Positions 13,803-32,757 of a stretch of 64,000 nucleotides of DNA are shown piece after piece. The position numbers and the translations under genes are program-made. Numbering within the stretch: position 1 is the stretch's first letter; the number at the start of each line of letters is the position of its first letter. Origin of the DNA: Dethiobacter sp. (GTDB taxonomy: Bacteria > Bacillota > Dethiobacteria > Dethiobacterales > Dethiobacteraceae); assembly GCA_018335875.1 (NCBI GenBank), contig JAGXRN010000067.1, positions 20,688-84,687 on the forward strand, written 5' to 3'. Below the pieces are notes generated by a model. The model was not told where the DNA came from, made no database searches, and saw only the letters and a program-made list of their open reading frames with translations.

Positions 13803-13869
13803 CTCTTGTAAATATTTTCACATTTACCCTAATTATATTGGCAAAACTTTGTCAGGACAAATAGCTTTC

Positions 13870-16863: not shown

Positions 16864-16914
16864 ACCTATTCACTGCGCTCTGAAAAGGAAAATATTAATA
16901 GCAGGATATTAAGA

Positions 16915-17536: not shown

Positions 17537-17640
17537 TCTACAAAAACCTGTTTCATTTTTTTGACATTCTGTAGATAATAATAAAGTGCGCGGCACAATT
17601 AGAATTAAAGAAAGCGGGTGATTGCAGGCATTAAAGAAAG

Positions 17641-18399: not shown

Positions 18400-18421
18400 A
18401 TTATAACTTGGAGGTGAAGTT

Positions 18422-19099
18422 ATGTCAGATAAAAATTTTAACATGGATAAAGACTGGAGAGCGCCGGCGATAAAGCTTGGCATGATTACTCTGTTGCTTG
18501 CCTCAGTTTTGTCTTTTCTGCCCGTTATATATTTATACCTGGTTCATGGAGTGATTCCGCCGGTATCACTGATGTTAAAATCCTGGGGGATGATTGCACT
18601 ACTTTTTGGCGCTTTTTATATCGTTGAGCCTGTTTCATATTACGCAGTTCTGGGCCTTGCCGGAACATACATGTCATTTTTGTCAGGAAACATTTCCAAC
18701 CTTCGTTTACCCTGCGCTGCCATGGCCCTGGATGTCACAGAGACAGAGCCCGGGACCAAAGAGGCGGAGGTAGTATCTACACTTGGTATTGCCGGCTCAA
18801 TCATTACAAACCTGATAGGTGTGACATTGGCCGCGTTTATCGGCACTGCCTTAATCAGGGTTTTCCCGCCGGTAATTGCCAATGCTTTCAGGACATATAC
18901 AGTTCCTGCTATTTTCGGGGCCGTCTTTGGCCAGTTTGCCATTAAATATCCGAAGCTGGCAATTGTTGGTTTTGCCATACCGGTGGGCCTCAGGTTATTT
19001 ACCACCCTGCCTGTGTGGGTATTAATTGCCGCTTCCGTTCTTGGCACAATTGCCGTGGCAAAACTAATATTCAGCAGGGAAACTCCTGCTTCCGTCTAA
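18422..19099 (+). CDS. Uncharacterised polytopic membrane protein B (about 6 TM)
   Basis: ATG follows GGAGGTG. The protein is hydrophobic, and the gene is tightly linked to gene A. Confidence 0.75.
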   Translation: MSDKNFNMDKDWRAPAIKLGMITLLLASVLSFLPVIYLYLVHGVIPPVSLMLKSWGMIALLFGAFYIVEPVSYYAVLGLAGTYMSFLSGNISNLRLPCAAMALDVTETEPGTKEAEVVSTLGIAGSIITNLIGVTLAAFIGTALIRVFPPVIANAFRTYTVPAIFGAVFGQFAIKYPKLAIVGFAIPVGLRLFTTLPVWVLIAASVLGTIAVAKLIFSRETPASV

Positions 19100-19109
19100 T
19101 AACCAAAAA

Positions 19110-19140
19110 AAGACCTAGAGCCTTATTGGCTCTAGGTCTT
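19110..19140 (+). other. 13-bp perfect hairpin inside the operon
   Basis: AAGACCTAGAGCC-TTATT-GGCTCTAGGTCTT. An A-run precedes it and only TTT follows, so it may be a partial terminator or a stabiliser. Confidence 0.5.
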
Positions 19141-19185
19141 TAACCAAATCAAATAGCAGCCAATTTAATTATAAAGGAGGTAATA

Positions 19186-20379
19186 ATGTTGATTAATGTG
19201 GTGGAAGAGGCCAAAAAAATTCAGGCAGAGTTAATCAGTTGGCGCAGGGAACTTCATCAATTTCCGGAAGTAGGCCTTGAATTACCCGAGACAGCTGCTT
19301 ATGTATCTAAAAAACTAACAGAGCTTGGCATTGAGCACAAAACAGGGATTGGGGTTTCCGGTATTGTCGGCCTGATCAGGGGGAAAGAGGAAGGCAAAAC
19401 AATTGCAATCAGGGCGGACATGGACGGTCTGGCTATTAAAGAAGAAACAGGCCTGCCCTTTGCCTCCCAAAACGGAAATATGCATGCGTGCGGACACGAT
19501 GCCCACACATCGATGCTTCTTGGTGTAGCTAAAATTTTAAATGAAAATAAGGACAAGTTAAAAGGCAACATTAAGCTTCTTTTCCAGGCGGCAGAAGAAG
19601 GCCCTGGAGGAGCTAAGCCAATGATTGACGACGGCGCAATGGAAAATCCCCGGGTAGACGCTGTCATCGGCCTGCATATAGGGACAATCTTCAAAGAAAT
19701 TGGCCCTGGTGTTGTTGGTGTAGCTTACGGCAACCTGATGGCGTGTCTTGACAGGTTTGACATAAAAGTTATCGGCAAGGGATGTCACGGCGCCATGCCG
19801 GATACAGGAATAGACCCCATTGTTATGGCTGCCCAGGTAGTTAACGCCCTGCAAACTATTGTCAGCAGGGAAATTAAACCGACTGAACCTGCTGTGGTAA
19901 CTATCGGAGAAATCCATGGCGGCAGGTCATACAACATCATTCCCGACGCTGTTGATATAGTGGGGACGGCGCGGGCGACCAGCCAGGATGTCAGGGAGAA
20001 AATAGCTTCCCGGATGGAAGAGATAGTGGCCTCTGTTACCAAAGCAATGAGGGGAAGCTACGAGTTTAATTACACTTTCGGCTATCCTCCATTGGTAAAC
20101 GATGCAGGCTTTACTAAAGGCTTTGTTGAAACTGCCAAAAAAATTGTGGGGGAAGAAAAGATATTTGAGATCACCAAGCCTACCATGGGCGGTGAAGACA
20201 TGGCTTTCTTTTTGGAAAAAGTGCCGGGCACATTCTTCTTTCTTGGTGGAGGGAACGAAAGCAAAGGGATCGTTACCCCACATCACAATTCCAAATTTGA
20301 TGTTGACGAAGACGTATTTTGGATCGGAACTGCCCTCCTCGCACAGGGCGCAGTAGACTGGCTGGAAAAAAACTCCTAG
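19186..20379 (+). CDS. M20D amidohydrolase (N-acyl-amino-acid / hippurate hydrolase family)
   Basis: WRRELHQFPE, ACGHDAH, GGAKPMIDDG and GGEDMAFF motifs. Confidence 0.9.
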   Translation: MLINVVEEAKKIQAELISWRRELHQFPEVGLELPETAAYVSKKLTELGIEHKTGIGVSGIVGLIRGKEEGKTIAIRADMDGLAIKEETGLPFASQNGNMHACGHDAHTSMLLGVAKILNENKDKLKGNIKLLFQAAEEGPGGAKPMIDDGAMENPRVDAVIGLHIGTIFKEIGPGVVGVAYGNLMACLDRFDIKVIGKGCHGAMPDTGIDPIVMAAQVVNALQTIVSREIKPTEPAVVTIGEIHGGRSYNIIPDAVDIVGTARATSQDVREKIASRMEEIVASVTKAMRGSYEFNYTFGYPPLVNDAGFTKGFVETAKKIVGEEKIFEITKPTMGGEDMAFFLEKVPGTFFFLGGGNESKGIVTPHHNSKFDVDEDVFWIGTALLAQGAVDWLEKNS

Positions 20380-20402
20380 TAGTATAACAGGAGGGATGTA
20401 TA

Positions 20403-21647
20403 TTGAAAATCGCAGATAAAGTCAGCAAAAACAGGATCGAGAATCAGATTAAAACACTGGCACAAATAGGCGCCACCGGTGAAGGCGGCATTACACGTCT
20501 GCCATATACAAAAGACGAGCGAGCTGCTGTTGCTTTGGTTAAAAGCTATATGGAAGAAGCAGGCCTTCAAACATTCTTCGATCAGTTCGGTAACTTATTC
20601 GGTAAATTAGAAGGCAAAAGTACTGAAGCTCCTGTTGTCATGACAGGCTCCCATGTTGATACTGTAATAAACGGCGGCGCTTTTGACGGGGTTATAGGCA
20701 CCCTTGGCGCCATCGAAGCGTTGAGAGTTATCAGGGAAAACAATATACCTCATGTTCACACTCTGGAGGCGTGTGTCTTTGTTTCCGAAGAACCTGTAAG
20801 ATTTCGGGCGGGCACATTAGGCAGCAAAGCTGCCATCGGAGACTTTACACAAAGTGATTTGGACAGACTTAAGGATAAAGATAACATAAGCTTAGCGCAG
20901 GCAATTAAGGAGTGTGGCTTTAATCCTGAACAATTGGAAAGTGTAAGAAGGGATCCGGCAAAAATAAAGTGTTTTGTGGAACTGCATATTGAACAAAGCA
21001 TTATTCTTGAGACAAAGAAACTGCCAATTGGTGTGGTAGACCAAATAGCCGCCCCAACTAACTTCCGGTTGACATTAAAAGGGAAGGCCGGGCACGCCGG
21101 GGCCACCCCTATGAACATGCGCAATGATGCTTTTATGGCTGCGGCAGAAATCGCGCTCGAAATTGAAAGAATTGCAATCACCATAGGAAAGGAAGCAGTT
21201 GGCACTGTGGGGGAAGTTAAAGTTATACCAAACGCTATAAATGTTATCCCAGGCGAGGTGATACTGGGGATTGATGTAAGGGATGTTACCTCAAAAAGAA
21301 AAGATGAAGCAATCGCGGAAATAGAAAAGTCGATCAACAACATCGCCGCCAGAAGAAATATAGAAGCTGTGATTGAGATCATTCAAAAGCAGGAACCCGT
21401 TAAAACTTCTCCTCAGATTGTAGACATTATTTCATCCACCTGCAACGAACTTGGACTGCCCTGGTGCAACATAACAAGCGGTGCGTATCATGATGCCTTA
21501 AATATGGCTAAGATTACAGACATAGGTATGATTTTTATTCCCAGTGCCGGTGGCATAAGCCATGCAAAAGAGGAATTCAGCAGTATTGATGATATTTACC
21601 AGGGTGCACGGGTGCTGGCAGAAGTTTTGGTGAAACTGGCCTCCTGA
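20403..21647 (+). CDS. M20 Zn-hydrolase (N-carbamoyl-L-amino-acid / allantoate amidohydrolase family)
   Basis: GITRLPYT, GSHVDTVINGGAFDGVIG, GHAGATPM and SGAYHDA motifs. TTG start. Confidence 0.85.
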   Translation: MKIADKVSKNRIENQIKTLAQIGATGEGGITRLPYTKDERAAVALVKSYMEEAGLQTFFDQFGNLFGKLEGKSTEAPVVMTGSHVDTVINGGAFDGVIGTLGAIEALRVIRENNIPHVHTLEACVFVSEEPVRFRAGTLGSKAAIGDFTQSDLDRLKDKDNISLAQAIKECGFNPEQLESVRRDPAKIKCFVELHIEQSIILETKKLPIGVVDQIAAPTNFRLTLKGKAGHAGATPMNMRNDAFMAAAEIALEIERIAITIGKEAVGTVGEVKVIPNAINVIPGEVILGIDVRDVTSKRKDEAIAEIEKSINNIAARRNIEAVIEIIQKQEPVKTSPQIVDIISSTCNELGLPWCNITSGAYHDALNMAKITDIGMIFIPSAGGISHAKEEFSSIDDIYQGARVLAEVLVKLAS

Positions 21648-21744: not shown

Positions 21745-21970
21745 ATGAATCTGGCGGGAGAGGCCCAATCTTGGGACACCGAAGGAGAAACCTTTATGGC
21801 ATGGCAGTCTGGAGGGAAACTCTCAGGTATAAGTACCGGCAGGGGACGCGTCCCTGGAGAGAGCCCGCTTAACGTGGGACACCAAAGGGGTAATGCCCGG
21901 ATATCCGGGTTAATCTCTCAGGTAAAAAGGACAGGGGAAACGGCCGGTTGGTTGTTTTCCCTGTTTTTTT
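21745..21970 (+). promoter_or_regulatory. Tandem glycine riboswitch upstream of gcvT
   Basis: Aptamer 1 reads GGCGGGAGAGGCC..CACCGAAGGAG..CTCTCAGGTATAAGTAC. Aptamer 2 reads CTGGAGAGAGCC..CACCAAAGGGGTAA..CTCTCAGGTAAAAAGGACAG. The terminator is ACAGGGGAAA / TTTTCCCTGT + T7. Confidence 0.85.
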
Positions 21971-21999
21971 ATATCTAAAGTTAAAAAAGAGGTGAGAAA

Positions 22000-23103
22000 A
22001 TGTCACTCAGGAGAACGCCTTTTTATGGGAAACATATCGAGTTGAAAGGAAAGATGGTGGATTTCCTCGGTTGGTCGCTGCCTGTGCAATATGAAGGGAT
22101 TATTGCAGAAGTGCAAAAAGTAAGGCAAAGCGCCGGTATTTTTGACGTTTCCCATATGGGAGAAATTCTGGTCGAAGGCAAAGGTGCGCTTCCTTTTCTA
22201 CAGAAAATTGCTACAAACGATATCTCCCGCCTGAAGGCACACGGGATCATGTACAGCCCTGTCTGCTATAGCAGTGGTGGTACAGTGGATGATATCTTAA
22301 TCTACTGCTATAATCCTGAAAAATACCTGCTTGTTGTCAACGCGAGCAACGCCCAGAAAGATTTGGCCTGGCTAAAAGAGCACTGCAGCGGGATTGTCAC
22401 TGTCCGTGACATCTCTGAAGACATAGCACAAATCGCGCTGCAGGGGCCAAACAGCCTGGAAATACTGCTTTCACTCACAGATAAGTCGCTGGCAGTGTTG
22501 AAGTATTATACTTTTGTCCCTGAGGCAAGGGTAGCCGGCATTAAATGCCTGATATCACGGACCGGCTATACAGGCGAGGATGGGTTTGAAGTCTACTGCC
22601 AGGCAAGTGAAGCACGGGAACTGTGGGGTGAAATATGGAGCGCAGGCGGGGAAGACGGATTAGGGCTTGCTGCTGCAGGCCTTGGCGCGCGGGATATACT
22701 GCGTCTGGAGGCCGCGCTGCCCCTCTACGGCCATGAACTCACGGCAGATATTACACCCCTCGACGCCGGTCTCGACAGGTTTGTATCCTTTACAAAAGGG
22801 ATAAACTTTATTGGAAGGGGTGCATTAGTTAAACAAAAAGAGGAAGGCACTCTGAAAAGACTGTGCGGTCTTGAGATGTTGGAAAGGGGCATCGCACGGG
22901 AAGGCTACAGTGTAAGAGCGCAGGAGGAGGAAGTAGGTTGGGTGAGCAGTGGTTCTTATTCACCCACGCTGGACAAAGCAGTGGCTCTGGCGTTTTTAAA
23001 TCCTGAGCATGCACCTCTTGGAAATCAGGTTCAGGTTGTTATCCGGGGCAGGGAATACAATGCACGGGTTGTTAAAATACCTTTTTACAGGAGGGAAAAA
23101 TAA
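22000..23103 (+). CDS. gcvT: Glycine cleavage system T protein (aminomethyltransferase)
   Basis: RRTPFY, FDVSHMGE and RTGYTGEDGFE motifs. Confidence 0.95.
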   Translation: MSLRRTPFYGKHIELKGKMVDFLGWSLPVQYEGIIAEVQKVRQSAGIFDVSHMGEILVEGKGALPFLQKIATNDISRLKAHGIMYSPVCYSSGGTVDDILIYCYNPEKYLLVVNASNAQKDLAWLKEHCSGIVTVRDISEDIAQIALQGPNSLEILLSLTDKSLAVLKYYTFVPEARVAGIKCLISRTGYTGEDGFEVYCQASEARELWGEIWSAGGEDGLGLAAAGLGARDILRLEAALPLYGHELTADITPLDAGLDRFVSFTKGINFIGRGALVKQKEEGTLKRLCGLEMLERGIAREGYSVRAQEEEVGWVSSGSYSPTLDKAVALAFLNPEHAPLGNQVQVVIRGREYNARVVKIPFYRREK

Positions 23104-23510
23104 TGAAGTGGCAGGTACCTGATGGCGTATTATTTACACGTAAGCACGAGTGGGTGAGACAGGAAGAGGGAAATACCGTAGCGGTAGGTATTTCCGACTA
23201 TGCCCAGGATAAACTGGGAAGTATTGTTTTTGTTGAACTGCCTGAGATAGGGCGGGAGCTGAAGGCCCTTGAAGCAATGGCCGTAATAGAGTCTGTGAAA
23301 GCAGTGGCTGACACCTACTCACCGGTCGACGGCACAGTCGTGGAAGTAAATGAAGAGGTTCTGGACCAACCGGAGCTGTTGAACCAGGATCCTTACGGTG
23401 CAGGTTGGATGGTGAAGATAGAGCTCAAAGCAGGATATGTGTTTAGCGGCCTTTTGAACTCTCAGGAATACAAAGATCTTCTCCTGCAGGAGGAGGATGG
23501 TGCAGAGTGA
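23103..23510 (+). CDS. gcvH: Glycine cleavage system H protein
   Basis: Lipoyl-lysine motif ESVKAV, plus GISDYAQ. Confidence 0.95.
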   Translation: MKWQVPDGVLFTRKHEWVRQEEGNTVAVGISDYAQDKLGSIVFVELPEIGRELKALEAMAVIESVKAVADTYSPVDGTVVEVNEEVLDQPELLNQDPYGAGWMVKIELKAGYVFSGLLNSQEYKDLLLQEEDGAE

Positions 23511-24856
23511 GCGGAAGGCACTATCTCCCACTAACTGATGCAGAGAGGAAGGAAATGCTGTCTGCCGCCGGCGCAGCCACTGTTGAGGACTTGTTTGCCG
23601 ATATTCCCGCCAATGTCCGGCTGCAGCGCGAAATGAATCTGCCCCCGGCTCTGGCGGAAAGGGAGGCACTCCTTCATCTGGCCGCGCTTGCCGGCAGAAA
23701 TAAAAACAGTATAGACTGCATCTCTTTTCTGGGCGCAGGCATCTACGACCATTTCACACCAAGCGCAGTCAAACATGTGACTGGAAGAAGTGAATTCTAT
23801 ACATCATACACGCCATACCAGGCTGAAATCAGCCAGGGCGTACTACAGGCAATCTTTGAATACCAGACAATGATCTGTGAACTGACAGGGATGGATGTTG
23901 CCAACGCTTCACTTTACGATGGCGCCACAGCGCTGGCGGAGGGAGCCATTATGGCCTGCGGTTCGACACGCCGGGAAAAGGTGCTTGTGTCTCGTACAGT
24001 CAATCCTTTTTACAGGCAGGTCCTTGGCACATACCTCTCCAGCAGAGGCCTGCAGCTGGAAGAAGTACCGATGCTGGACGGGGAAACCGACTTAATAAAA
24101 TTGGAGGGCCTAATCGGCAGCGATATAGCTGCCTTCATACTCCAACGGCCAAATTTCTTTGGCATACTTGAAAATGTTGATAAAGTAGCTGACATCCTTC
24201 ATGCAAAAGGTGCCCTCTTAATAATGAGTGTGGACCCCCTTTCGCTGCCGCTTGTGGGGGCGCCTGCAGAGTACGGCGCCGATATTGTAGCGGGAGAAGG
24301 CCAGGGACTGGGGAATTCGCCCTCTTTTGGCGGCCCTCTGCTTGGGTTTTTCGCCTCCACCGACAAGCTGATCAGGCGCATGCCAGGACGCATTGTGGGT
24401 GAAACAGTCGATAAAGAAGGAAACAGAGGTTTTGTTCTTACACTGCAAACACGCGAGCAGCATATCCGGCGTGAGCGGGCAACATCTAATATCTGTTCCA
24501 ACCAAGCGTTAAACGCGCTGGCCGCAGCAGTTTACATGGCATGTCTGGGACCGGAGGGTATGAAAGAAGTTGCTTTTCAGTGCCTGCAAAAATCAGCGTA
24601 TGCGCGTGAAAAAATATCTTCTCTGGGGAACTACAGCATTGCTTTTAACGGTACTCACTTTAAAGAATTTGCTGTCAAAGTGCCGGGGGGCGCCCGCGCA
24701 CTTAACGCTGAACTTTTGAAAAGCAATATTCTCGGAGGTTTTGACTTAACGCCATATTACCCTGAATTAAAAAACACGATTCTTTTTTGCGTGACAGAGA
24801 ACAGAACAAAAGAGGAAATTGATATGCTTGTCCGTGTATTGGAGGGATGGAGATGA
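23507..24856 (+). CDS. gcvPA: Glycine dehydrogenase (decarboxylating) subunit 1
   Basis: Typical P-protein N-terminal half ([17 protein letters not shown]). GTG start overlaps the gcvH stop. Confidence 0.95.
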
Positions 24857-26313
24857 GAAAGCACAAAGAGCTTCTTTTTGAAATGGGGAGAGCCGGACGG
24901 CGCGGCTATTCCTTACCAGCCTGTGACGTCCCTGTAAAACCTGTCTCTGAGCTGCTGCCCGCTTCCATGCAGCGCAAACTACCCCTTGATTTGCCCGAGC
25001 TGTCGGAGGGCGAGGTAATGCGGCATTATACAGCCCTTTCCACACGCAATCACGGGGTTGATTCCGGTTTTTACCCCCTTGGCTCCTGCACAATGAAATA
25101 CAATCCAAAGGTGAATGAAGAGGCTGCAGCGCTTGCGGGCTTTGCTTTTGCTCACCCCTGCCAGGATGAGTCAACAGTCCAGGGTGCGCTGGAACTACTC
25201 TTTAAGGCTGAAGAAAGCCTGAAAGAAATCACCGGCATGGACAGGATTACTTTCCAGCCTGTGGCCGGAGCTCACGGTGAGTTGACAGGGTTGATGATGA
25301 TTGGAGCCTACCACCGCTCGCGAAATGAAAACAGAAATAAAGTGCTGGTTCCCGACTCAGCCCATGGCACAAATCCCGCCACGGCAGCTATGGCAGGTTT
25401 CGAAGTGGTACAGATACCCTCCGATGACAGGGGCTTGGTCGATATTAGAGCGCTAAAAGAAGCATTGGGGAGCGACACTGCGGCGTTGATGCTGACAAAC
25501 CCAAATACGCTGGGCCTGTTTGAAGAGGAGATTCTGGAGATTGCAGCTGCAGTCCATGAAGCAGGAGGGCTGCTCTACTATGACGGAGCAAACCTCAATG
25601 CTGTCATGGGCTATGCCCGCCCAGGCGATATGGGGTTTGATGTTGTCCACTTAAACCTGCATAAAACATTTTCCACACCGCACGGCGGGGGCGGCCCCGG
25701 CAGCGGCACAGTGGGTGTCAAAGAAAAACTTGTGCCTTTCCTGCCGCTTCCCCTGGTGGGACGCAATGAAGAAAGGTATTACTTTGACTATGACCGCCCG
25801 GCCAGCATTGGGAAAATTCACAGTTTTCACGGTAATTTCGGCGTGGTTGTCAAAGCGTACACCTATATCTGTATGATGGGAAGCTCCGGGCTAAAACAGG
25901 TAAGCGCAGACGCCGTACTCAATGCCAATTACCTGATGAGCAGGCTTAAAAGTTCTTATAACCTTCCATACGACAGATTATGCAAGCATGAATTTGTGCT
26001 TTCCGCCCGTGAGCAGAAGAAAAATGGAGTCAGCGCCTCCGATATAGCCAAGGCTCTTTTGGACTTTGGCTATCATCCCCCCACGGTATATTTTCCCCTT
26101 GTGGTGGAGGAAGCACTGATGATTGAGCCCACCGAGACAGAAAGCAAGGAGACGCTGGACTCTTTCGCCGGGGTCATGGAAAAGATCGCATGCCTGGCCC
26201 GGGATAACCCGGCAAGGGTGAAAGAGGCGCCGCACACCACCGTGGTGGGCAGGCTGGATGAAGTTAGGGCGGCGCGCCAGCCCCGGGTCCGTTGGCGCCG
26301 CAGTGACTCCTGA
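24853..26313 (+). CDS. gcvPB: Glycine dehydrogenase (decarboxylating) subunit 2
   Basis: The PLP-lysine region is [21 protein letters not shown] at 24853 overlaps the gcvPA stop (ATGA). Confidence 0.95.
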
Positions 26314-27182
26314 TGCAGCAACAAGACATAGAAGAGCTGCTTGAAGAGACTTGGGCTTTGCGCAGAGCCTATTTCCCGCATCGCATTGAATTTGTATATC
26401 CCATCCAGACACTGCCAGTAAGTATAACAGGAAGTGACTGTGCCCTGAACTGTGCCCATTGCGGCCGGGAATATATTAAACGGATGTCTACCCTTAAGGA
26501 GGCTGTGCAGGGTAAAAGAGGAGACTGCAAAAGCTTCCTGCTCAGCGGAGGCTGCGACACACGCGGCGCTGTTCCTCACCTGCTGCACCGTCAGGAAATC
26601 AATGAACTCGCAAGGCGGGGCCGCCTTAACATCCATGCAGGTTTGGTTGGGGAAGATGAGACAAGTGAACTGGCTAAATTGTCCACTGTAATCTCCTTTG
26701 ATTTTGTAGTGGATGACGAGACTATCGAGGAAGTCTACGGATTGCCTGTCAGCAGCGCCAGTTATATAGAGTCCTACCGCCGCCTGCGCCGCCTGACCCA
26801 CGTTGTCCCACATATTTGCATCGGCCTCAAAGGCGGTGAAATCAAGGGGGAGTACAAAGCGCTGGAGGCTCTGAAGCGCGAGGGGGCGCAAGCTATAAGT
26901 TTTATTATATTTCGACCCACTCCCAACACTGCATTTGCAGACTGCACTCCCCCCCCCGCAGCTGAAGTAGTCAGGATACTGTCAACTGCCCGCATCATGT
27001 TTCCACGCGTGCCGATTTACCTTGGCTGCATGCGTCCCGGGGGCAACTACAGAAGTATGCTGGACTGCCTGGCTATCAGGGCAGGTGTCAATAAGCTTGT
27101 CCACCCAAGCCCTGCAGCCCGCAATCTGGCTCAGGTACTGGGCCTAAATATAGTACGTAAAGAGGAGTGCTGCTCACTGTGA
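26313..27182 (+). CDS. Radical SAM protein (BioB/LipS-like), member 1 of a pair
   Basis: CX3CX2C motif CALNCAHC near the N-terminus. It is translationally coupled to gcvPB (TGATG). Confidence 0.8.
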   Translation: MQQQDIEELLEETWALRRAYFPHRIEFVYPIQTLPVSITGSDCALNCAHCGREYIKRMSTLKEAVQGKRGDCKSFLLSGGCDTRGAVPHLLHRQEINELARRGRLNIHAGLVGEDETSELAKLSTVISFDFVVDDETIEEVYGLPVSSASYIESYRRLRRLTHVVPHICIGLKGGEIKGEYKALEALKREGAQAISFIIFRPTPNTAFADCTPPPAAEVVRILSTARIMFPRVPIYLGCMRPGGNYRSMLDCLAIRAGVNKLVHPSPAARNLAQVLGLNIVRKEECCSL

Positions 27183-28174
27183 TACGCATGTCAGCCGGAA
27201 CGGCAGCCTGCCTGGGCTTAAAAACTATAAAGATGGATGTTCATCCAACCACGGCTTACCTGCTTTTGGGAGACAGCTGTACCATGAAATGTTCTTTTTG
27301 TCCTCAGGGGAAAGAAAGCAGCGGAGCAGCAGGCCGGCTCGGCAGGGTCACGTGGCCGTCTTTTTCTTTGCCGGAGTTGGAACAGGGACTGGAAAAAGCA
27401 GAAGAGTCAGGGATAAAAAGAATATGCCTGCAGGGTGTAAGGAATGAATTGAGTACAGCTGCTTTCCCGGCACTGGTAAAAAAGCTCAAAGAAATCTCGT
27501 CGCTGCCTGTCTGCACTTCTGCCTGGATTAAAGATGAAAATGAAGCTGCCCACCTGTTTGAATCCGGCGCAGACCGTGTCAGTATTGCACTTGATGCTGC
27601 CAGTGAAGAGGCGTATAAACAGTTTAAGGGCGGCTCCCTTGCACAAAGAAAAGAACTTCTTATTTCCTGTGCCCGCCGCTGGCCCGGGCGTATCAGCACA
27701 CACCTTATTTGCGGTCTGGGTGAAACAGAGCAGGAACTGCTGGCACTGACAGCAGAGCTCCTAATGGAGCAGGTAGCTGTGGCACTTTTTGCTTTTACTC
27801 CCCTTAAGGGGACTGCCCTGGCCGGCCAGCCTCCTCCAGAGGCGGGGAAATACAGGCGCATACAGGCGGCATCTTATTTGTTGCGTAAGAAACACCTTTC
27901 ATTTTCTCAGCTTGTCTTTGGCGAAAATGGCAGTCTGGAATCACTTGGCGTTACACCTGAAATGCTGCTGAATTTACTAAAAGGGAAAGAAGCGTTTTGT
28001 ACCAGCGGCTGCCCCGACTGCAACCGTCCTTATTATAACGAAAGGCCGGGGGGCTTTATCTACAACTTTCCAAGGCTCTTAACAGAGCCTGAGGAAAGAG
28101 AAGCCCTGGGGCTTATCACAGCAAGCCTGCAGGAGGTGAAAAGGAATGCGGGAAGTATGGCGGCTAATCTGTGA
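27167..28174 (+). CDS. Radical SAM protein (BioB/LipS-like), member 2 of a pair
   Basis: CX3CX2C motif CTMKCSFC, plus C-terminal Cys motif CTSGCPDCNRPYYNE. The start is uncertain (GTG 27167 or 27179, or ATG 27188). Confidence 0.8.
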   Translation: MLLTVIRMSAGTAACLGLKTIKMDVHPTTAYLLLGDSCTMKCSFCPQGKESSGAAGRLGRVTWPSFSLPELEQGLEKAEESGIKRICLQGVRNELSTAAFPALVKKLKEISSLPVCTSAWIKDENEAAHLFESGADRVSIALDAASEEAYKQFKGGSLAQRKELLISCARRWPGRISTHLICGLGETEQELLALTAELLMEQVAVALFAFTPLKGTALAGQPPPEAGKYRRIQAASYLLRKKHLSFSQLVFGENGSLESLGVTPEMLLNLLKGKEAFCTSGCPDCNRPYYNERPGGFIYNFPRLLTEPEEREALGLITASLQEVKRNAGSMAANL

Positions 28175-28880
28175 CGAACAACTGCCGGGTGAAAAAAATA
28201 TGTCACGGGATTTAGCCATTCTTGACGAAGTGGCAAAGGCTGCAGCGCCGCCAACTCTCCGTTTCTATACCTGGAGCCCTCCAGCCTTATCGCTGGGCTA
28301 TTTTCAGCAAGCTGAGGACGTGGCTGATATAGAGGCTTGCAGGCGCCTTGGCATAGAAATTGTGAGGAGGCCAACCGGAGGCAGAGCGCTGCTTCACCAC
28401 CGCGAACTAACTTATAGCGTGGCTGTGCCAGAAGGCCACCCGCTTATACCCACTGCAGTACTGCCTGCCTATAAGTTTCTCAGCAGTGCAATCATTAACG
28501 GTCTTTCCCTGTTAGGCGTAGAGGCTGACCTCTCAGCGGGTGAGAACAGGGGGAGGGGAAAGGCGCCGGGTTCGTGTTTTGATACTCCTTCAGCCTATGA
28601 AATACAAATTGGGGGCAAGAAAGTGGTAGGAAGCGCTCAGCTTCGCCGCAATGGAGCTCTTCTGCAGCACGGCTCTATTCTGCTTGAACTCTCACTGGAC
28701 CTCTACCGCCATGTCCTGCGCCATGACTGCAGGGAGGATAATTATATTGATATTCTGGGCAAAAGGGCGGCAGGGCTTCATGATCTTGGTTACAATACAC
28801 CCATAGAGGATCTTACGGGGGCAATGGTCAGTGGTTTTTCAGAGCTGCTGTCGACCGACTTCTTAAGGGAGGATTTATGA
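28146..28880 (+). CDS. Lipoate-protein ligase / octanoyltransferase family protein (catalytic domain only)
   Basis: WRLI...NMSRDLAILDE, RRPTGGRALLH and KKVVGSAQLRR (lipoyl-AMP lysine region). Length is 244 aa. Confidence 0.85.
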   Translation: MREVWRLICDEQLPGEKNMSRDLAILDEVAKAAAPPTLRFYTWSPPALSLGYFQQAEDVADIEACRRLGIEIVRRPTGGRALLHHRELTYSVAVPEGHPLIPTAVLPAYKFLSSAIINGLSLLGVEADLSAGENRGRGKAPGSCFDTPSAYEIQIGGKKVVGSAQLRRNGALLQHGSILLELSLDLYRHVLRHDCREDNYIDILGKRAAGLHDLGYNTPIEDLTGAMVSGFSELLSTDFLREDL

Positions 28881-28881
28881 T

Positions 28882-30282
28882 ATGGAACACTACCAGCTGA
28901 CTGTAATAGGAGGGGGTCCAGGCGGTTATGCAGCTGCCCTGCGCGCCGCTGCCCTGGGGCAGAAAACCCTCTTGATTGAGAAAGAAACACTGGGTGGCAC
29001 ATGCCTCAATCACGGGTGCATCCCAACCAAAACTTTGTTTCACAGCGCACAGCTCTATAATAAAATAAAAAAAGCAGGTGAATTCGGTTTTAGTACCGGT
29101 GAAGTTACTTTTTCTTATGGAAAAATACAGGACAGAAAAATTGCCGTTGTGGACAAACTTGTCACCGGTCTTTCAGGCTTGCTCAAAAGAGCCGGTGTTG
29201 AAACTTGTTTTGGCACGGCACAGCTTATTTCAGCCAACTTGGTTGAGATAGAAAAGGCAGATGGGAACAGGCTTAGGGCAGGTACAGACAAAATTATACT
29301 GGCGCCGGGCAGCGAGGAAATAATTCCCTCCGTCACCGGGATAGAACTGCCAGGAATTCTTACTTCAAGAGAGGCACTGGCGCTGAGGGAAGTTCCATCC
29401 AGCCTGGCAGTAATCGGCGGTGGTGTCATCGCTGTTGAGATGGCTTCAATCTTTGCATCTTTTGGCTGCTCTGTGACCATTGTGCAGAGAAGTATAATAC
29501 TGCGCCGGGAAGACAGGGAAATGGTGCGCCGCCTGATTCCTTATCTGCGCAAACAAGGCATTAAGATCATGACAGACACTCAGCTGGAAAAAATCGAACA
29601 GTCTGCAAACGGCTATGCTCTCACTGTCAGTGCAAGGCAAAAAGAAGAAACCGTAAAGGCGGAAGCTGTGCTGGTGGCAGTTGGCCGCAAGGCTTCAAGC
29701 GGAGGCCTTGACCTTAACTCCCTGGGGATTAAGTGCAGTTCCAGGGGCATTGATGTAAGTGATACAATGGAAACAAGTGCTGCGGGAGTCTATGCCATCG
29801 GGGACGCAGCTGCCCCGGGTTACTTCCTGGCTCACGTAGCAACCCACCAGGGGATTGTGGCAGCAGAAAACGCCGCCGGCCTGCAATCTGTTTTTAAAGG
29901 AGAAGTTGTGCCTGTCTGCATCTTTACACAGCCGGAACTGGCGCGAGTCGGGCTCACTGAAGAAGAGGCCAGAGAAAAAGGTTATGACGTTAAAGTAGGC
30001 AAATTTCCTTTTTCCGCCAACGGCAAGGCCTTTTTGCAAGGAGAAGGGGAAGGCGCCGTTAAAATTGTCTGTGACGGCAAAGACGGCCCTGTGCTTGGCG
30101 TCCATATATTGGGTCCGCATGCTTCCGACCTGATACAGGAGGGAGCGCTGGCAGTTTCTGCCGGCATTAAAATAAGTGAACTGGCGGATTTAATCCATCC
30201 CCATCCAACATTAAGCGAAGCTGTCTGGGAGGCTGCCCTTACTGTGGGAAAATCGCCGCTGCATCTTGAACACTGGGGGTAA
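28882..30282 (+). CDS. lpdA: Dihydrolipoyl dehydrogenase (L protein / E3)
   Basis: GGGPGGY..GGTCLNHGCIPTK redox disulfide and the C-terminal HPHPTLSE motif. Confidence 0.93.
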   Translation: MEHYQLTVIGGGPGGYAAALRAAALGQKTLLIEKETLGGTCLNHGCIPTKTLFHSAQLYNKIKKAGEFGFSTGEVTFSYGKIQDRKIAVVDKLVTGLSGLLKRAGVETCFGTAQLISANLVEIEKADGNRLRAGTDKIILAPGSEEIIPSVTGIELPGILTSREALALREVPSSLAVIGGGVIAVEMASIFASFGCSVTIVQRSIILRREDREMVRRLIPYLRKQGIKIMTDTQLEKIEQSANGYALTVSARQKEETVKAEAVLVAVGRKASSGGLDLNSLGIKCSSRGIDVSDTMETSAAGVYAIGDAAAPGYFLAHVATHQGIVAAENAAGLQSVFKGEVVPVCIFTQPELARVGLTEEEAREKGYDVKVGKFPFSANGKAFLQGEGEGAVKIVCDGKDGPVLGVHILGPHASDLIQEGALAVSAGIKISELADLIHPHPTLSEAVWEAALTVGKSPLHLEHWG

Positions 30283-30328
30283 TGATGATACTATAGATAA
30301 AATACCTTTTAGCCTGAGGGGGAAAAAT

Positions 30329-31906
30329 ATGAGGGTACTTGTCAGCGAGGAAATATCAGAACAAGGTTTGGACAAGCTTAGGGAAAAAGCGCTTGTGGAC
30401 GTGTTAACAGGCCTTTCTCCCGACGAACTGATGGAAAAAATCCCTGCCTACGACGCTTTAATCGTACGCAGTTCTACCAAGGTAACACGCAGCGTGCTGG
30501 AAGCCGGGGTCAGGCTTAAAGTAGTGGGGCGTGCAGGCGTTGGTGTGGATAATATAGATGTGGAAGCAGCAACAGAGCGCGGCATAATCGTCATCAACGC
30601 CCCGGAAGGAAATATTATTTCTGCTGCTGAACATACCATCGCCATGATGACATCTCTGGCCAGGAATATCCCGTCGGCAGTTTCTTCTCTCAAAGCAGGA
30701 CTGTGGAAGCGGTCGGAACACATGGGTGTTGAGCTGTTTAAAAAAACCCTTGGTGTGATTGGAATAGGGCGGGTCGGCAGCGAGGTCAGTAAAAGGGCCA
30801 GAGCTATGGGTATGGAGATCATCGCCTACGACCCCTATATTTCAGTAGAGCATGCCGCAAAAATAGGCGCAACAATGGCCAGTGTGGAAGAAGTCTGCCG
30901 CAGGGCCGATTTTATTACGCTGCATGCCCCGTTGACTCCCAAAACACGTTATATTATAGGTAAGAGCGAGTTGGCAGTAATGAAAGACGGTGTAAGGCTG
31001 ATTAACTGCGCACGAGGTGGCCTCATTGACGAGCAGGCACTCTACGATGCACTCAAATCAGGTAAAGTTGCCGGCGCTGCTCTGGATGTTTTCGAGCAGG
31101 AGCCGGCCCTGAATAATCCGCTCTTTGAGTTTGACAATGTGCTCGCCACTCCGCATCTTGGCGCCTCCACTGCAGAGGCACAGGTGAATGTGGCCGTTCA
31201 GGTAGCGGAGCATGTGATAAGCGCCCTTTTGGGAGAACCGCTGCTGAGCGCAGTCAATGTGCCTGTCATTCCGCCTGAAACAATGGCCGGCGTGCTCCCG
31301 TTCATACCGCTCATGAAAACATTGGGCTCCTTTTATACCCAGGTCTTTAACGGCAAAGTGGAAGCAGTCGATATCATTTACAGCGGAGAGATAGCAGGTT
31401 ATCCTGTCACTCCCCTGACCAACTCACTGCTGATTGGCCTGCTTTCTTCAATCCTTCATGAAACCGTGAACTATGTGAACGTGGCCGTGGTAACCAAGCA
31501 ACGCGGCATCAGGGTGCGGGAAATAACCAGCAAAACAGTAGAAAATTTCGCAAACCTGATTACAGTCAACATTAAATCAAATGGAGGGACCAATACGATC
31601 GCGGGCACACTCTTCCACAAAAACGATCCCCGCATCGTGCAGATAGGAAAACACAGAATTGAAGTGTCCCCGTCGAGGTATATGCTTGTAACAACACATA
31701 TCGATTTGCCCGGTGTCATCGGCAGTGTGGGGACTCTCCTGGGTAAAAATAACGTCAACATCGCAGGAATGCAGGTCGGGCGGGAATCAATCGGCGGCGA
31801 AGCCGTGATGGTGCTTCAGGTTGACGGCCCCGTCCCCGAAGAGATACTAAGTCAGGTTGAACAGCTCACTCCCATATCTTCAGTCTTCTTTGTCAGACTG
31901 GACTAA
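30329..31906 (+). CDS. serA: D-3-phosphoglycerate dehydrogenase (long form with ACT domain)
   Basis: MRVLVSE start, GIGRVGSEV NAD-binding motif, CARGG and HLGAST. Length is about 525 aa. Confidence 0.93.
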   Translation: MRVLVSEEISEQGLDKLREKALVDVLTGLSPDELMEKIPAYDALIVRSSTKVTRSVLEAGVRLKVVGRAGVGVDNIDVEAATERGIIVINAPEGNIISAAEHTIAMMTSLARNIPSAVSSLKAGLWKRSEHMGVELFKKTLGVIGIGRVGSEVSKRARAMGMEIIAYDPYISVEHAAKIGATMASVEEVCRRADFITLHAPLTPKTRYIIGKSELAVMKDGVRLINCARGGLIDEQALYDALKSGKVAGAALDVFEQEPALNNPLFEFDNVLATPHLGASTAEAQVNVAVQVAEHVISALLGEPLLSAVNVPVIPPETMAGVLPFIPLMKTLGSFYTQVFNGKVEAVDIIYSGEIAGYPVTPLTNSLLIGLLSSILHETVNYVNVAVVTKQRGIRVREITSKTVENFANLITVNIKSNGGTNTIAGTLFHKNDPRIVQIGKHRIEVSPSRYMLVTTHIDLPGVIGSVGTLLGKNNVNIAGMQVGRESIGGEAVMVLQVDGPVPEEILSQVEQLTPISSVFFVRLD

Positions 31907-31947: not shown

Positions 31948-31985
31948 AAAAGTCGGCATCAGTTATTCGGGTGCCGACTTTTGTG
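31948..31985 (+). terminator. Rho-independent terminator after serA
   Basis: AAGTCGGCA (31950-31958) / TGCCGACTT (31972-31980), then TTGT. Confidence 0.7.
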
Positions 31986-32055
31986 ACGATACCAGGATTT
32001 CCAGCCGGCATGATGTTGACTAAATTGGAAAGCCATGGTATTATTATGCAAATAG

Positions 32056-32093
32056 TAGACTCACGAGTCATAATATAGACCCATGAGTCATAA
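32056..32093. promoter_or_regulatory. Two direct 18-nt repeats, each with an internal palindrome (candidate TetR operators)
   Basis: TAGACTCACGAGTCATAA (32056-32073) and TAGACCCATGAGTCATAA (32076-32093). The cores are GACTC-AC-GAGTC, and the centres are 20 nt apart. Confidence 0.45.
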
Positions 32094-32109
32094 AGGAGAA
32101 CGAACAGTC

Positions 32110-32757
32110 ATGTCACGCAATGAAAAAGAGAGGTCTTTTCGCAGAAAACTGCTGGCAGAAACCGCAGCACGCCTTTTCAGGGAAAGGTCTTACCATACCA
32201 TTAAAGTTGAGGAAATTACAAATGATGCTGAATTCAGCAAGGGGAGTTTCTACAAATACTTTTACAATAAAGACGAACTTGTATGTGAAATAGTTTACAG
32301 TGAGACGCAAAAACTCAGTGCACAACTGGCTGTCATATTGAATAAATCAGAACCTATCTACGATATTCTGATGTTTATGGCACAAGCGCTTCTTACTTAT
32401 CACTGCAATACAATACATCTGACGTTTATATTGGATGAATTGCTGCCTGGGGACAATTCCAGACATAGCACGCCTGATCGTCAAAACTTTGTAGCGGAAA
32501 AATTAATGCAGTCCTGGAAATTGAAAATAGCCACAGCACTGGAGCAAAATTATTCTTTGCTGAATAAAATCTTTGCTGCTGCTGTGAGCAATAAACAATT
32601 AAGGGAAATTCCGGTTCCCTTACTCTCTTTGCTGTTAGATAATCTGGCAAAAGGAATGTCATACAGATGTCAGTCAGGCTCATCAAATAATTATAAAGAC
32701 AACATTTTACCCCTCGCTGAAACTGTCAGGCTTTTGCTTGAGGGTATAAAAGCTTAA
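32110..32757 (+). CDS. TetR/AcrR-family transcriptional regulator
   Basis: HTH region ITNDAEFSKGSFYKYFYNKDEL. ATG at 32110 lies after AAAGGAG; the ORF-track start at 32083 sits inside the operator repeat. Confidence 0.85.
   Translation: MSRNEKERSFRRKLLAETAARLFRERSYHTIKVEEITNDAEFSKGSFYKYFYNKDELVCEIVYSETQKLSAQLAVILNKSEPIYDILMFMAQALLTYHCNTIHLTFILDELLPGDNSRHSTPDRQNFVAEKLMQSWKLKIATALEQNYSLLNKIFAAAVSNKQLREIPVPLLSLLLDNLAKGMSYRCQSGSSNNYKDNILPLAETVRLLLEGIKA

What the first reader, a model, noticed from the sequence alone, without database searches (positions are those of the whole stretch)
26313..28880. Pair of radical-SAM genes plus LplA-type ligase embedded in the gcv operon: LipS1/LipS2-type lipoate assembly?
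Two consecutive radical-SAM ORFs sit between gcvPB and a 244-aa catalytic-domain-only lipoate-protein ligase, followed by lpd. The first (289 aa) has CALNCAHC. The second (335 aa) has CTMKCSFC plus a C-terminal CTSGCPDCNRPYYNE motif. Start and stop codons overlap or abut through most of gcvT-to-lpd. Neither ORF has the canonical LipA N-terminal CX4CX5C motif. In Thermococcus kodakarensis, two BioB-like radical-SAM proteins (LipS1 and LipS2) together replace LipA. A ligase-plus-LipS1/LipS2 route has also been described in sulfur-oxidising bacteria. This arrangement suggests that route is dedicated here to lipoylating GcvH, under glycine-riboswitch control.
Basis: partly seen in the sequence, partly recalled or inferred. 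Interest (0 to 1): 0.7.

Follow-up and report, generated by a model that had tools for sequence, protein, structure and literature searches.

The report
Lipoate-making genes inside glycine-cleavage operon
A Dethiobacter glycine-cleavage operon, switched on by a glycine riboswitch, also carries the three enzymes that build the lipoate cofactor on its H protein (a LipM-type octanoyl transferase plus the two-protein lipoyl synthase LipS1/LipS2), which is a tidy example of a pathway described in 2020-2023 rather than a new kind of system.

Summary

- **LipS1 and LipS2.** ORF 26313-27182 passes the curated NCBIfam LipS1 equivalog model (274 bits, cut-off 230). ORF 27167-28174 passes the LipS2 model (337 bits, cut-off 270). 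Both fail BioB and LipA. Both keep every cluster ligand mapped by mutagenesis in the Thermococcus enzymes.
- **The "ligase".** The 244-aa protein is most likely not an ATP-dependent ligase but a LipM-type octanoyl transferase. It is 44% identical to B. subtilis LipM. It keeps LipM's active-site cysteine loop and GGR motif, where true ligases have GGG and lack the loop. It has no LplB accessory domain.
- **Conservation.** The order gcvT-H-PA-PB-lipS1-lipS2-lipM-lpd recurs in 6 of 8 related Bacillota loci, 5 of them with a glycine riboswitch.
- **Fusions.** LipS2-LipM fusion proteins exist in other lineages.
- **Prior knowledge.** LipS1/LipS2 are biochemically characterised. Tanabe et al. 2023 already tabulate 41 Firmicutes genomes with LipS1/S2 plus LipM and no ligase.

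Verdict: a new member of a known kind. The operon context and the fusions are modestly new. The LipM-dependent LipS route is still untested biochemically.

The parts
21745..21848 (+). Glycine riboswitch aptamer 1
   Evidence: Rfam RF00504, 59.4 bits (gathering 32), full model
21852..21936 (+). Glycine riboswitch aptamer 2 (tandem)
   Evidence: Rfam RF00504, 41.3 bits. A glycine riboswitch also lies upstream of gcvT in L002, L003, L006, L008 and L009
21931..21971 (+). Expression platform: terminator hairpin (ACAGGGGAAA...TTTTCCCTGT) plus T7 run, overlapping the 3' end of aptamer 2
   Evidence: Read directly from the sequence. That it works as a glycine-ON switch is inferred from the known behaviour of the riboswitch class
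22000..23103 (+). gcvT, aminomethyltransferase (T protein)
   Evidence: TIGR00528 399.9 bits (cut-off 235.85)
23103..23510 (+). gcvH, H protein, the lipoyl acceptor (E-S-V-K66-A motif)
   Evidence: TIGR00527 152.7 bits (cut-off 115.85); the SVK motif starts at residue 64, so the lysine is K66
23507..24856 (+). gcvPA, glycine dehydrogenase subunit 1
   Evidence: PF02347 GDC-P in the precomputed gene table; 54-78% identical orthologs in syntenic loci
24847..26313 (+). gcvPB, glycine dehydrogenase subunit 2
   Evidence: PF02347 and PF21478; orthologs in syntenic loci
26313..27182 (+). lipS1, second-acting half of the two-protein lipoyl synthase (sulfur at C6)
   Evidence: NF053742 LipS1 equivalog 274.3 bits (cut-off 230); bioB 29.1 bits (cut-off 225). 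C43/C47/C50, H167, C239 and C286-C287 are invariant in 11 bacterial and archaeal homologs
27167..28174 (+). lipS2, first-acting half (sulfur at C8 of octanoyl-lysine). GTG start; an alternative ATG at 27188 has no RBS
   Evidence: NF053743 LipS2 equivalog 336.6 bits (cut-off 270). C38/C42/C45, C87 and C282/C285 are invariant in 10 homologs
28146..28880 (+). LipM-type octanoyl transferase (LplA-family catalytic domain only), with active-site Cys144 and Lys159
   Evidence: 44% identity and 163 bits to B. subtilis LipM, with C144 aligned to LipM C150. The invariant core is shared with authentic LipMs. It has the GGR motif and the Cys loop that true ligases lack. AF2 model pLDDT 91.7
28882..30282 (+). 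lpd, dihydrolipoyl dehydrogenase (L protein)
   Evidence: TIGR01350 506.3 bits (cut-off 408.8)
30329..31906 (+). serA, phosphoglycerate dehydrogenase, last gene of the unit. Likely ATG start with a GAGGGGG RBS; the ORF is open from TTG 30266
   Evidence: TIGR01327 687.8 bits, with the model starting at residue 23 of the long ORF; sequence; also follows lpd in L003
31950..31985 (+). Candidate terminator hairpin after serA (AAGTCGGCA...TGCCGACTT followed by TTG)
   Evidence: Read from the sequence. It is weak and the consensus scan did not report it

Best explanation
This is one glycine-induced transcription unit in a Dethiobacter genome. It encodes the complete glycine cleavage system (T, H, P-alpha, P-beta, L) together with all the enzymes needed to build the lipoyl cofactor on the H protein.

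Proposed steps:
1. Glycine binds the tandem riboswitch and prevents formation of the leader terminator.
2. The 244-aa LipM-type enzyme takes the octanoyl group from octanoyl-ACP onto Cys144 as a thioester and transfers it to Lys66 of apo-GcvH.
3. LipS2, a radical-SAM enzyme with an auxiliary [4Fe-4S] cluster on C87/C282/C285, inserts sulfur at C8.
4. LipS1, with an auxiliary cluster on C239/C286/C287 (+H167), inserts sulfur at C6, giving lipoyl-GcvH.
5. Lpd then reoxidises the cofactor during catalysis.

Shown here: gene identities by curated HMMs, conservation of ligand residues, synteny, the riboswitch, and LipS2-LipM fusions. Inferred: the acyl donor (ACP rather than free octanoate plus ATP), the order of action (taken from the Thermococcus enzymes), and that GcvH is the dedicated, possibly sole, target.
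For: LipS1 and LipS2 pass the NCBIfam equivalog cut-offs and fail BioB and LipA. All residues shown by mutagenesis to be needed in TkLipS1 (C230, C276, C277, H159) and TkLipS2 (C85, C276, C279) (PMC9585515) have invariant counterparts across bacterial and archaeal homologs.

The 244-aa protein scores 163 bits at 44% identity to B. subtilis LipM. It scores 154 bits by phmmer with LipM, while E. coli LplA gives no hit, and 72 bits to T. acidophilum LplA. C144, equivalent to LipM's active-site Cys, and the CFDxPSxYE loop and GGR motif are invariant in LipM and this clade. They are absent from EcLplA, TaLplA and an archaeal Lpl(AB).

Of its 150 nearest 50%-identity representatives, 147 are 216-359 aa, that is, single-domain. 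No LplB-like, LipA or LipB sequence was found in the window or in 8 related loci.

The gene order is conserved in 6 of 8 bacterial loci, and a riboswitch is present in 5 of those 6. Natural LipS2-LipM fusions occur in L008, P0261 and P0289. They join the transferase to the enzyme that acts first on octanoyl-lysine.

Tanabe et al. 2023 list 41 Firmicutes genomes with LipS1/S2 plus LipM and no Lpl. They infer that in such bacteria LipS1/S2 act on transferase-octanoylated targets (PMC10332631).
Against: No activity is shown for any of these proteins. Cronan warns that function in the PF03099 family cannot be read from sequence alone (PMC7253636).

The nearest solved structure is a true ligase subunit, T. 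acidophilum LplA (TM 0.76). A separate LplB could be encoded elsewhere in the genome, which I could not scan. My LplB search used single sequences and has low sensitivity.

The window clade lacks the roughly 25-residue C-terminal helix present in B. subtilis LipM and in the L004 and L006-L009 homologs.

Whether the genome also has lipA, lipB or other lipoylated proteins is unknown; 42 of 106 LipS-positive Firmicutes in Tanabe's table also have LipA.
Confidence: 0.7

Rival explanations
1. One reading: the 244-aa protein is an ATP-dependent lipoate/octanoate:protein ligase. It would work either alone or with an LplB subunit encoded elsewhere. The operon would then encode the 'ligase + LipS1/S2' salvage-type route shown in sulfur oxidisers and Thermococcus, using free octanoate or lipoate.
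For: It has the LplA-family fold, and the closest solved structure is the T. acidophilum LplA catalytic subunit. Experimental proof for LipS1/S2 partners exists only for ligases (PMC10332631). 64 of 106 LipS-positive Firmicutes have some Lpl. The rest of the genome was not available to search for LplB.
Against: It scores far below the NCBIfam ligase cut-offs: LplA_large 87.6 against 480, LplAB 68 against 550. There is no PF10437 domain, and no LplB-like ORF lies next to it in any of 7 syntenic loci. It carries GGR instead of the ligase GGG motif, and it carries the LipM Cys loop. It is more than twice as similar to characterised LipM as to any characterised ligase. The fusions to LipS2 also lack LplB.
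Confidence: 0.2
2. The 244-aa protein is a LipL-like amidotransferase. It would relay octanoyl or lipoyl groups from GcvH to other lipoyl domains, while GcvH is loaded by an enzyme encoded elsewhere.
For: It belongs to the same protein family. GcvH is the relay hub in Bacillota (PMC7253636). LipL also uses an active-site cysteine (my own knowledge).
Against: The LipL homolog 2P5I matches only at E = 0.11. The NCBIfam LipL models give no hit to the window protein, while authentic LipM itself scores weakly on them. No E2 or other lipoyl-domain gene is in the window; the only Biotin_lipoyl protein is a biotin carrier next to OAD_beta.
Confidence: 0.04
3. The two radical-SAM proteins have another function (BioB-like biotin synthesis, HydE/thiazole-type chemistry or similar), and their position in the gcv operon is incidental.
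For: Deposited annotations call them 'biotin synthase' or 'radical SAM protein'. The window also encodes a biotin-dependent decarboxylase.
Against: BioB scores 29 and 59 bits against a cut-off of 225, while the LipS1 and LipS2 equivalogs are passed. The LipS-specific auxiliary-cluster ligands are invariant. Adjacency to GcvH and a LipM-type enzyme is conserved, and fusion to that enzyme recurs.
Confidence: 0.03

Closest known systems
LipS1/LipS2 two-protein lipoyl synthase of Thermococcus kodakarensis (Jin et al. 2020, my own knowledge; Neti et al. 2022, PMC9585515)
   Same: Both proteins pass the family equivalog HMMs. They have the same Cx3Cx2C motifs and the same auxiliary-cluster ligands: the CC pair at the C-terminus of LipS1 with its conserved His, and the CxxC plus an upstream Cys in LipS2. 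The genes are adjacent.
   Different: The host is bacterial (Dethiobacter, Bacillota). The genes sit inside a gcv operon under a glycine riboswitch. The partner enzyme is LipM-like, not the bipartite LplA-LplB ligase. LipS1 identity to the archaeal homologs fetched here is only 28-35%.
sLpl(AB)-LipS1/S2 pathway of sulfur-oxidising bacteria (Tanabe et al. 2023, PMC10332631; Cao et al. 2018, PMC6067878)
   Same: It is a LipS1/S2-based lipoyl assembly encoded next to its dedicated GcvH-like acceptor protein.
   Different: There the acceptor is LbpA of the sHdr system, the partner is a two-domain ligase using free octanoate or lipoate, and lipT usually accompanies the genes. Here the acceptor is a bona fide GcvH, the partner is single-domain and LipM-like, there is no lipT, and lpd is a true TIGR01350 L protein.
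LipM/LipA de novo pathway and GcvH-centred lipoyl relay of Bacillus subtilis (Christensen & Cronan 2010; Christensen et al. 2011; summarised in PMC7253636 and PMC6067878)
   Same: The single-domain LplA-family enzyme is 44% identical to BsLipM, with the same active-site Cys loop. GcvH is the specific acceptor.
   Different: Sulfur insertion is by LipS2 plus LipS1 instead of LipA. The genes are clustered with gcv and controlled by a riboswitch. The window clade lacks LipM's C-terminal helix. No LipL is seen nearby.
'LipS1 & LipS2 + LipM & no Lpl' genome category in Tanabe et al. 2023, S4 Table
   Same: This is exactly the enzyme combination found here. The table counts 41 Firmicutes and 8 Chloroflexota genomes.
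   Different: The category exists only as a survey count. In the text and the supplements I could read, I found no description of the gcv-operon embedding, the riboswitch control or the LipS2-LipM fusions. The larger tables are truncated in the held copy.
gcvT-H-PA-PB-lpd-lplA1 operon of Thermacetogenium phaeum (PMC12674515)
   Same: It is a gcv operon of an anaerobic Bacillota member that carries lpd and an LplA-family gene.
   Different: No lipS1/lipS2 are reported in that operon, and the gene order differs (lpd comes before the LplA-family gene).

Membership tests
LipS1 family lipoyl synthase | Scores above the curated NCBIfam NF053742 equivalog cut-off (230 bits) over the full length | tested here: met
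   274.3 bits, residues 27-287 against model positions 1-268 of 268
LipS1 family lipoyl synthase | Radical-SAM Cx3Cx2C motif, plus auxiliary-cluster ligands equivalent to TkLipS1 C230, C276 and C277, plus the conserved His159 | tested here: met
   C43/C47/C50, C239, C286-C287 and H167 are all invariant in 11 homologs, including 2 archaeal ones. The residue definitions come from PMC9585515
LipS1 family lipoyl synthase | Inserts sulfur at C6 of 8-mercaptooctanoyl-lysine | not testable with these tools
   Needs an enzyme assay
LipS2 family lipoyl synthase | Scores above the curated NCBIfam NF053743 equivalog cut-off (270 bits) over the full length | tested here: met
   336.6 bits, residues 6-302 against model positions 1-292 of 292
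LipS2 family lipoyl synthase | Radical-SAM Cx3Cx2C motif, plus auxiliary ligands equivalent to TkLipS2 C85, C276 and C279 | tested here: met
   C38/C42/C45, C87, C282 and C285 are invariant in 10 homologs
LipS2 family lipoyl synthase | Encoded together with LipS1 | tested here: met
   The two genes are adjacent and overlapping here and in L002-L010 and L012
LipS2 family lipoyl synthase | Inserts sulfur at C8 of octanoyl-lysine | not testable with these tools
   Needs an enzyme assay
LipM octanoyl transferase | Single LplA-family catalytic domain without an LplB accessory domain | tested here: met
   Pfam finds PF21948 and PF03099 only. 147 of the 150 nearest representatives are 216-359 aa
LipM octanoyl transferase | Active-site cysteine on the LipM-specific loop. 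The residue number, B. subtilis Cys150, is from my knowledge of Christensen & Cronan 2010; that LipM has an 'active site cysteine' is stated in PMC7253636 | tested here: met
   C144 aligns with C150 of database-verified BsLipM P0123. It is invariant in 30 sequences. The loop is absent from EcLplA and L010 and from TaLplA
LipM octanoyl transferase | Closer in sequence to characterised LipM than to characterised ligases, LipB or LipL | tested here: met
   BsLipM 163 bits at 44% identity. TaLplA 72 bits, S. pneumoniae LplA 38 bits, LipL homolog 2P5I 15 bits. EcLplA and EcLipB give no hit
LipM octanoyl transferase | No LplB partner encoded in the genome | tested here: inconclusive
   None was found in the 64-kb window or in 8 related loci, using single-sequence phmmer. 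The full genome was not available
LipM octanoyl transferase | ATP-independent octanoyl-ACP:GcvH transfer, with no ligase activity | not testable with these tools
   Needs an enzyme assay
Lipoate:protein ligase (LplA, LplAB, sLpl(AB)) | LplB accessory domain (PF10437), fused or encoded adjacently | tested here: not met
   There is no PF10437 in the protein, and none next to it in 7 syntenic loci
Lipoate:protein ligase (LplA, LplAB, sLpl(AB)) | Passes the curated ligase HMM cut-offs | tested here: not met
   LplA_large 87.6 against 480, LplAB 68 against 550, TIGR00545 39 against 280
Biotin synthase BioB | TIGR00433 equivalog cut-off of 225 bits | tested here: not met
   29.1 bits (LipS1) and 58.7 bits (LipS2)
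Canonical lipoyl synthase LipA | TIGR00510 cut-off of 310 bits; N-terminal CX4CX5C and C-terminal RSSY motifs | tested here: not met
   No hit for LipS1 and 20.2 bits for LipS2. The motifs are absent from the Cys maps
Glycine riboswitch (RF00504) | Passes the Rfam gathering score; tandem aptamers followed by an expression platform | tested here: met
   59.4 and 41.3 bits against a gathering score of 32; terminator hairpin and T-run at 21931-21971

The most novel reading that the evidence does not exclude
In Dethiobacter and related anaerobic Bacillota, LipM, LipS2 and LipS1 may form a physically coupled, GcvH-dedicated assembly line that fully replaces LipA. It would be made only when glycine is present, because GcvH is the organism's only lipoylated protein. 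The recurrent LipS2-LipM fusion proteins would then mark direct hand-over of octanoyl-GcvH from the transferase to the first sulfur-inserting enzyme. A LipM-fed (octanoyl-ACP-dependent) LipS1/S2 route has so far only been inferred from genome co-occurrence and has never been demonstrated.
Probability: 0.45. Interest if true: 0.45.

Novelty: new member of a known kind. Interest (0 to 1): 0.3.

Why it matters
It gives a clean, compact bacterial model for the LipS1/LipS2 lipoyl synthase working with a LipM-type transferase on an ordinary GcvH. That enzyme combination is known only from genome surveys.

It shows cofactor assembly being co-regulated with its single client enzyme by a metabolite riboswitch.

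It also shows that deposited annotations ('biotin synthase', 'radical SAM protein', 'lipoate-protein ligase A') are wrong or uninformative for this widespread Bacillota gene set. This matters for metabolic reconstructions of glycine cleavage and the reductive glycine pathway in anaerobes. It does not change what is known about how lipoate is made.

Tried and rejected
1. **BioB, LipA, HydE-type and other radical-SAM identities.** Rejected on curated HMM scores.
2. **Reading the conserved Cys alone as proof of LipM.** A first automatic alignment put an 'ACF' of the archaeal two-domain homolog L010 in the same column. L010 has a weak PF10437 domain plus DUF116. A more careful alignment shows that L010 and EcLplA lack the 16-residue loop. 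I therefore rely on the loop plus the GGR motif plus overall similarity, not on the Cys alone.
3. **An NCBIfam LipM model.** None exists that even authentic B. subtilis LipM passes, so the missing named hit for the window protein says nothing.
4. **Literature confirmation of the residue number Cys150.** Christensen & Cronan 2010 and Cronan 2016 are not held, and a text search was unproductive. The number rests on my memory. The existence of a LipM active-site cysteine comes from PMC7253636.
5. **Dethiobacter in Tanabe's per-species tables.** The supplements are truncated in the held copy, so I could not read the lipA/lipB status of this genus.
6. **Genome-wide search for lipA, lipB or lplB.** Only the window and 8 loci were searched.
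7. **Fold search.** It gives only the generic LplA/LipB scaffold, and the PDB holds no LipM structure. It does not discriminate.
8. **P0263.** This is an apparent fusion of the LipM-like domain to prephenate dehydratase. I judged it unrelated or a gene-call artefact.

Full report
**Observation.** The 289-aa ORF (26313-27182) and the 335-aa ORF (27167-28174) lie between gcvPB (24847-26313) and a 244-aa LplA-family ORF (28146-28880), which is followed by lpd (28882-30282). The quoted cysteine motifs are present. Junctions from gcvT to lpd are overlaps of 1 to 29 nt or a 1-nt gap. Rfam finds a tandem glycine riboswitch at 21745-21848 and 21852-21936. Directly after it, a hairpin (ACAGGGGAAA...TTTTCCCTGT) with a T7 run overlaps the end of aptamer 2 and precedes the gcvT ribosome-binding site. 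This is the usual layout of a glycine-ON transcriptional switch. The consensus scan found no convincing terminator between 22000 and 31906. serA (TIGR01327, 688 bits) follows lpd, most likely starting at ATG 30329, 46 nt after the lpd stop. A weak hairpin follows serA at about 31950-31985.

**Source.** The window is part of JGI metagenome contig Ga0439391_00317. Its LipS1 protein is identical to NCBI MBS4023460.1, 'radical SAM protein [Dethiobacter sp.]'. The organism is therefore a Dethiobacter (Bacillota, class Dethiobacteria). The flanking genes are ordinary chromosomal genes: rny and ymdB upstream; miaB, mutS, mutL and miaA downstream.

**The radical-SAM pair.** NCBIfam contains curated equivalog models for both halves of the two-protein lipoyl synthase.
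- The 289-aa protein scores 274.3 bits on LipS1 (cut-off 230).
- The 335-aa protein scores 336.6 bits on LipS2 (cut-off 270).
- Both matches are full length.
- BioB scores only 29 and 59 bits (cut-off 225), and LipA about 20 bits.

Neti et al. 2022 (PMC9585515) defined the functional residues of the Thermococcus enzymes by mutagenesis. In LipS1 these are the Cx3Cx2C motif, auxiliary-cluster ligands C230, C276 and C277, and a fully conserved H159. In LipS2 they are the Cx3Cx2C motif and C85, C276 and C279. I aligned the window proteins with homologs from eight bacterial and three archaeal loci. The counterparts are all present and invariant: C43/C47/C50, H167, C239 and C286-C287 in LipS1, and C38/C42/C45, C87 and C282/C285 in LipS2. 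The same paper shows that LipS2 acts first, turning octanoyl-lysine into 8-mercaptooctanoyl-lysine, and that LipS1 then adds sulfur at C6.

**The 'ligase'.** Pfam sees only the LplA/LipB catalytic domain and no LplB accessory domain. The protein falls far short of every NCBIfam ligase cut-off. By sequence and by fold, the closest solved structure is the catalytic subunit of the bipartite T. acidophilum ligase (72 bits; TM 0.76). The PDB contains no LipM.

I retrieved database-verified B. subtilis LipM (P0123, 'octanoyltransferase LipM [Bacillus subtilis]'). For this I used a sequence recalled from memory, only as bait. The results were:
- The window protein is 44% identical to LipM over 190 residues (163 bits, E = 5e-54), and its Cys144 aligns with LipM Cys150.
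- In phmmer, LipM matches the cognate gene of every related cluster at 154-291 bits, whereas E. coli LplA gives at most 38 bits and does not hit the window protein.
- In a 30-sequence alignment of the window clade plus authentic Bacillaceae LipMs, the block C144-F-D-x2-S-x2-E ... K159-V-x-G-S-A-Q is invariant, as is R80.
- A careful alignment shows two signatures shared by LipM and this clade and absent from true ligases (EcLplA, an archaeal two-domain homolog L010, TaLplA). One is TGG-R-(A/G)-(V/L)-LH where ligases have GGG-(A/T)-(V/I). The other is the 16-residue Cys-bearing loop.
- An exhaustive search shows that 147 of the 150 nearest 50%-identity representatives are 216-359 aa.
- NCBIfam has no LipM model that even B. 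subtilis LipM passes, so the lack of a named hit is uninformative.

[quoted passage not shown] I therefore read the 244-aa protein as a LipM-type octanoyl transferase. Cronan's caveat applies: activities in this family cannot be assigned from sequence alone. One difference from LipM is that the window protein and its closest relatives (L002, L003) lack the C-terminal helix of about 25 residues found in LipM and in the L004 and L006-L009 homologs. The AlphaFold model is nevertheless a complete, confident domain (pLDDT 91.7), with the Cys loop as its only flexible part.

**Conservation and coupling.** I compared the window with loci carrying its closest ligase homologs and with a genome-collection scan using LipS1.
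- The order gcvT-gcvH-gcvPA-gcvPB-lipS1-lipS2-lipM(-lpd) recurs in Dethiobacter alkaliphilus (L002), a second metagenome contig (L003) and four Bacillota MAGs (L006-L009). LipS1 identity in these is only 42-62%.
- Five of these six loci have a glycine riboswitch upstream of gcvT.
- One Clostridia MAG (L004) has lipS1-lipS2-lipM without gcv genes nearby. Haloimpatiens (L005) has lipS1 and a split lipS2 alone.
- In L008, LipS2 and the LipM-like protein form one uninterrupted 623-aa ORF with both domains.
- Two further cluster representatives, P0261 (634 aa) and P0289 (608 aa), have the same architecture, and their LipS2 halves pass the equivalog cut-off.

The fusion joins the transferase to the enzyme that acts first on octanoyl-lysine, which fits the proposed order LipM, then LipS2, then LipS1. 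No LipA, LipB or LplB-like sequence was detected in the window or in the eight related loci. GcvH has the canonical ESVK66A acceptor motif. The only other Biotin_lipoyl-domain protein in the window is a biotin carrier next to a decarboxylase beta subunit.

**Comparison with what is known.** LipS1/LipS2 are characterised in Thermococcus (PMC9585515). A ligase-based sLpl(AB)-LipS1/S2 route has been proven in sulfur-oxidising bacteria (PMC10332631). The same paper notes that in some bacteria lipS1/S2 co-occur with LipM instead of a ligase, 'implying' that LipS1/S2 act on transferase-octanoylated targets. Its S4 Table counts 106 Firmicutes genomes with LipS1+LipS2, of which 41 have 'LipM & no Lpl' and 42 also have LipA. 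So the enzyme combination is already catalogued. LplA-family genes inside gcv operons of anaerobic Bacillota are also on record, for example in T. phaeum (PMC12674515).

I could not find three things in the held literature: the full gcv-lipS1-lipS2-lipM-lpd operon as a conserved riboswitch-controlled unit, the LipS2-LipM fusions, and any experiment on a LipM-fed LipS route. The large supplementary tables of Tanabe et al. are truncated in the held copy, so I cannot exclude that such clusters are listed there. Deposited annotations of these genes remain generic or wrong ('radical SAM protein', 'biotin synthase', 'lipoate-protein ligase A').

**Verdict.** The partner enzyme is better described as LipM-type than as a ligase, with confidence of about 0.7 for the whole mechanism. 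This is a new member of a known kind, with a neat regulatory and genomic context but no new principle. Interest is about 0.3. The main open points are biochemical (acyl donor, order of action, dependence on C144) and genomic (absence of lipA, lipB and lplB, and of other lipoyl proteins, in complete Dethiobacter genomes).

Noticed in passing
window 16908-21647: A second glycine-riboswitch region lies just upstream of the gcv operon: RF00504 at 17290-17388 (66.8 bits) and a borderline hit at 16908-16999 (33.1 bits). It precedes a DUF5058 membrane protein (17641-18399), an unannotated membrane protein (18422-19099), an M20 amidohydrolase (19186-20379) and a carbamoylase/allantoate-amidohydrolase-family enzyme (20403-21647). 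This may be a glycine-induced uptake and hydrolysis module for N-acyl- or N-carbamoyl-amino acids feeding the glycine cleavage system.
   Followed up: partly
L008 8948-10819; proteins P0261, P0289: Natural single-polypeptide fusions of LipS2 (N-terminal) with the LipM-like domain (C-terminal), 608-634 aa, occur in other Bacillota lineages.
   Followed up: yes
window 28146-28880; L002, L003: The Dethiobacter-clade LipM-like proteins (244-254 aa) lack the C-terminal helix of about 25 residues (consensus ..LTPEE....KY..D.W..R). That helix is present in B. subtilis LipM and in the homologs of L004 and L006-L009.
   Followed up: partly
window 30266-31906: serA (phosphoglycerate dehydrogenase) is the last gene of the glycine-induced unit here and in L003. 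Co-induction of a serine-biosynthesis enzyme with glycine cleavage is not obviously explained. The likely start is ATG 30329, not the TTG 30266 used in the public gene call.
   Followed up: partly
window 27167 / 27188 and 28146 / 28200: The public (JGI) gene calls start lipS2 at ATG 27188 and the LipM-like gene at ATG 28200 (226 aa). Homolog conservation and the RBS positions favour the upstream starts GTG 27167 and ATG 28146. The 226-aa call cuts off the conserved first beta-strand, WRLI.
   Followed up: yes
L005 8837-9806 (Haloimpatiens sp. FM7330): The LipS2 homolog is split into two ORFs (137 and 182 aa), with no LipM-like or gcv gene nearby. It may be a pseudogene or a frameshift.
   Followed up: no
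L010 3191-4765 (Thermoplasmatales archaeon): The archaeal ligase homolog next to lipS1-lipS2 is 524 aa. It has the LplA catalytic domain, a weak LplB-like domain (18.8 bits, below the gathering score) and a C-terminal Cys-rich DUF116 domain.
   Followed up: no
window 53613-53824 (-): A T-box leader (RF00230, 118.9 bits) lies upstream of the minus-strand ORF 52001-53668.
   Followed up: no
window 32058-32089: A 32-nt near-perfect inverted repeat lies between serA and the TetR-family gene (32083-32757) and overlaps a promoter-like site at 32016-32044. It could be a TetR operator.
   Followed up: no
window 12711-16046: A YeeE-like sulfur-transport protein (minus strand), a LysR regulator and a cysteine-desulfurase-family protein (TIGR01977, 429 bits) sit 6-9 kb upstream. 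No link to the lipS genes was tested.
   Followed up: no
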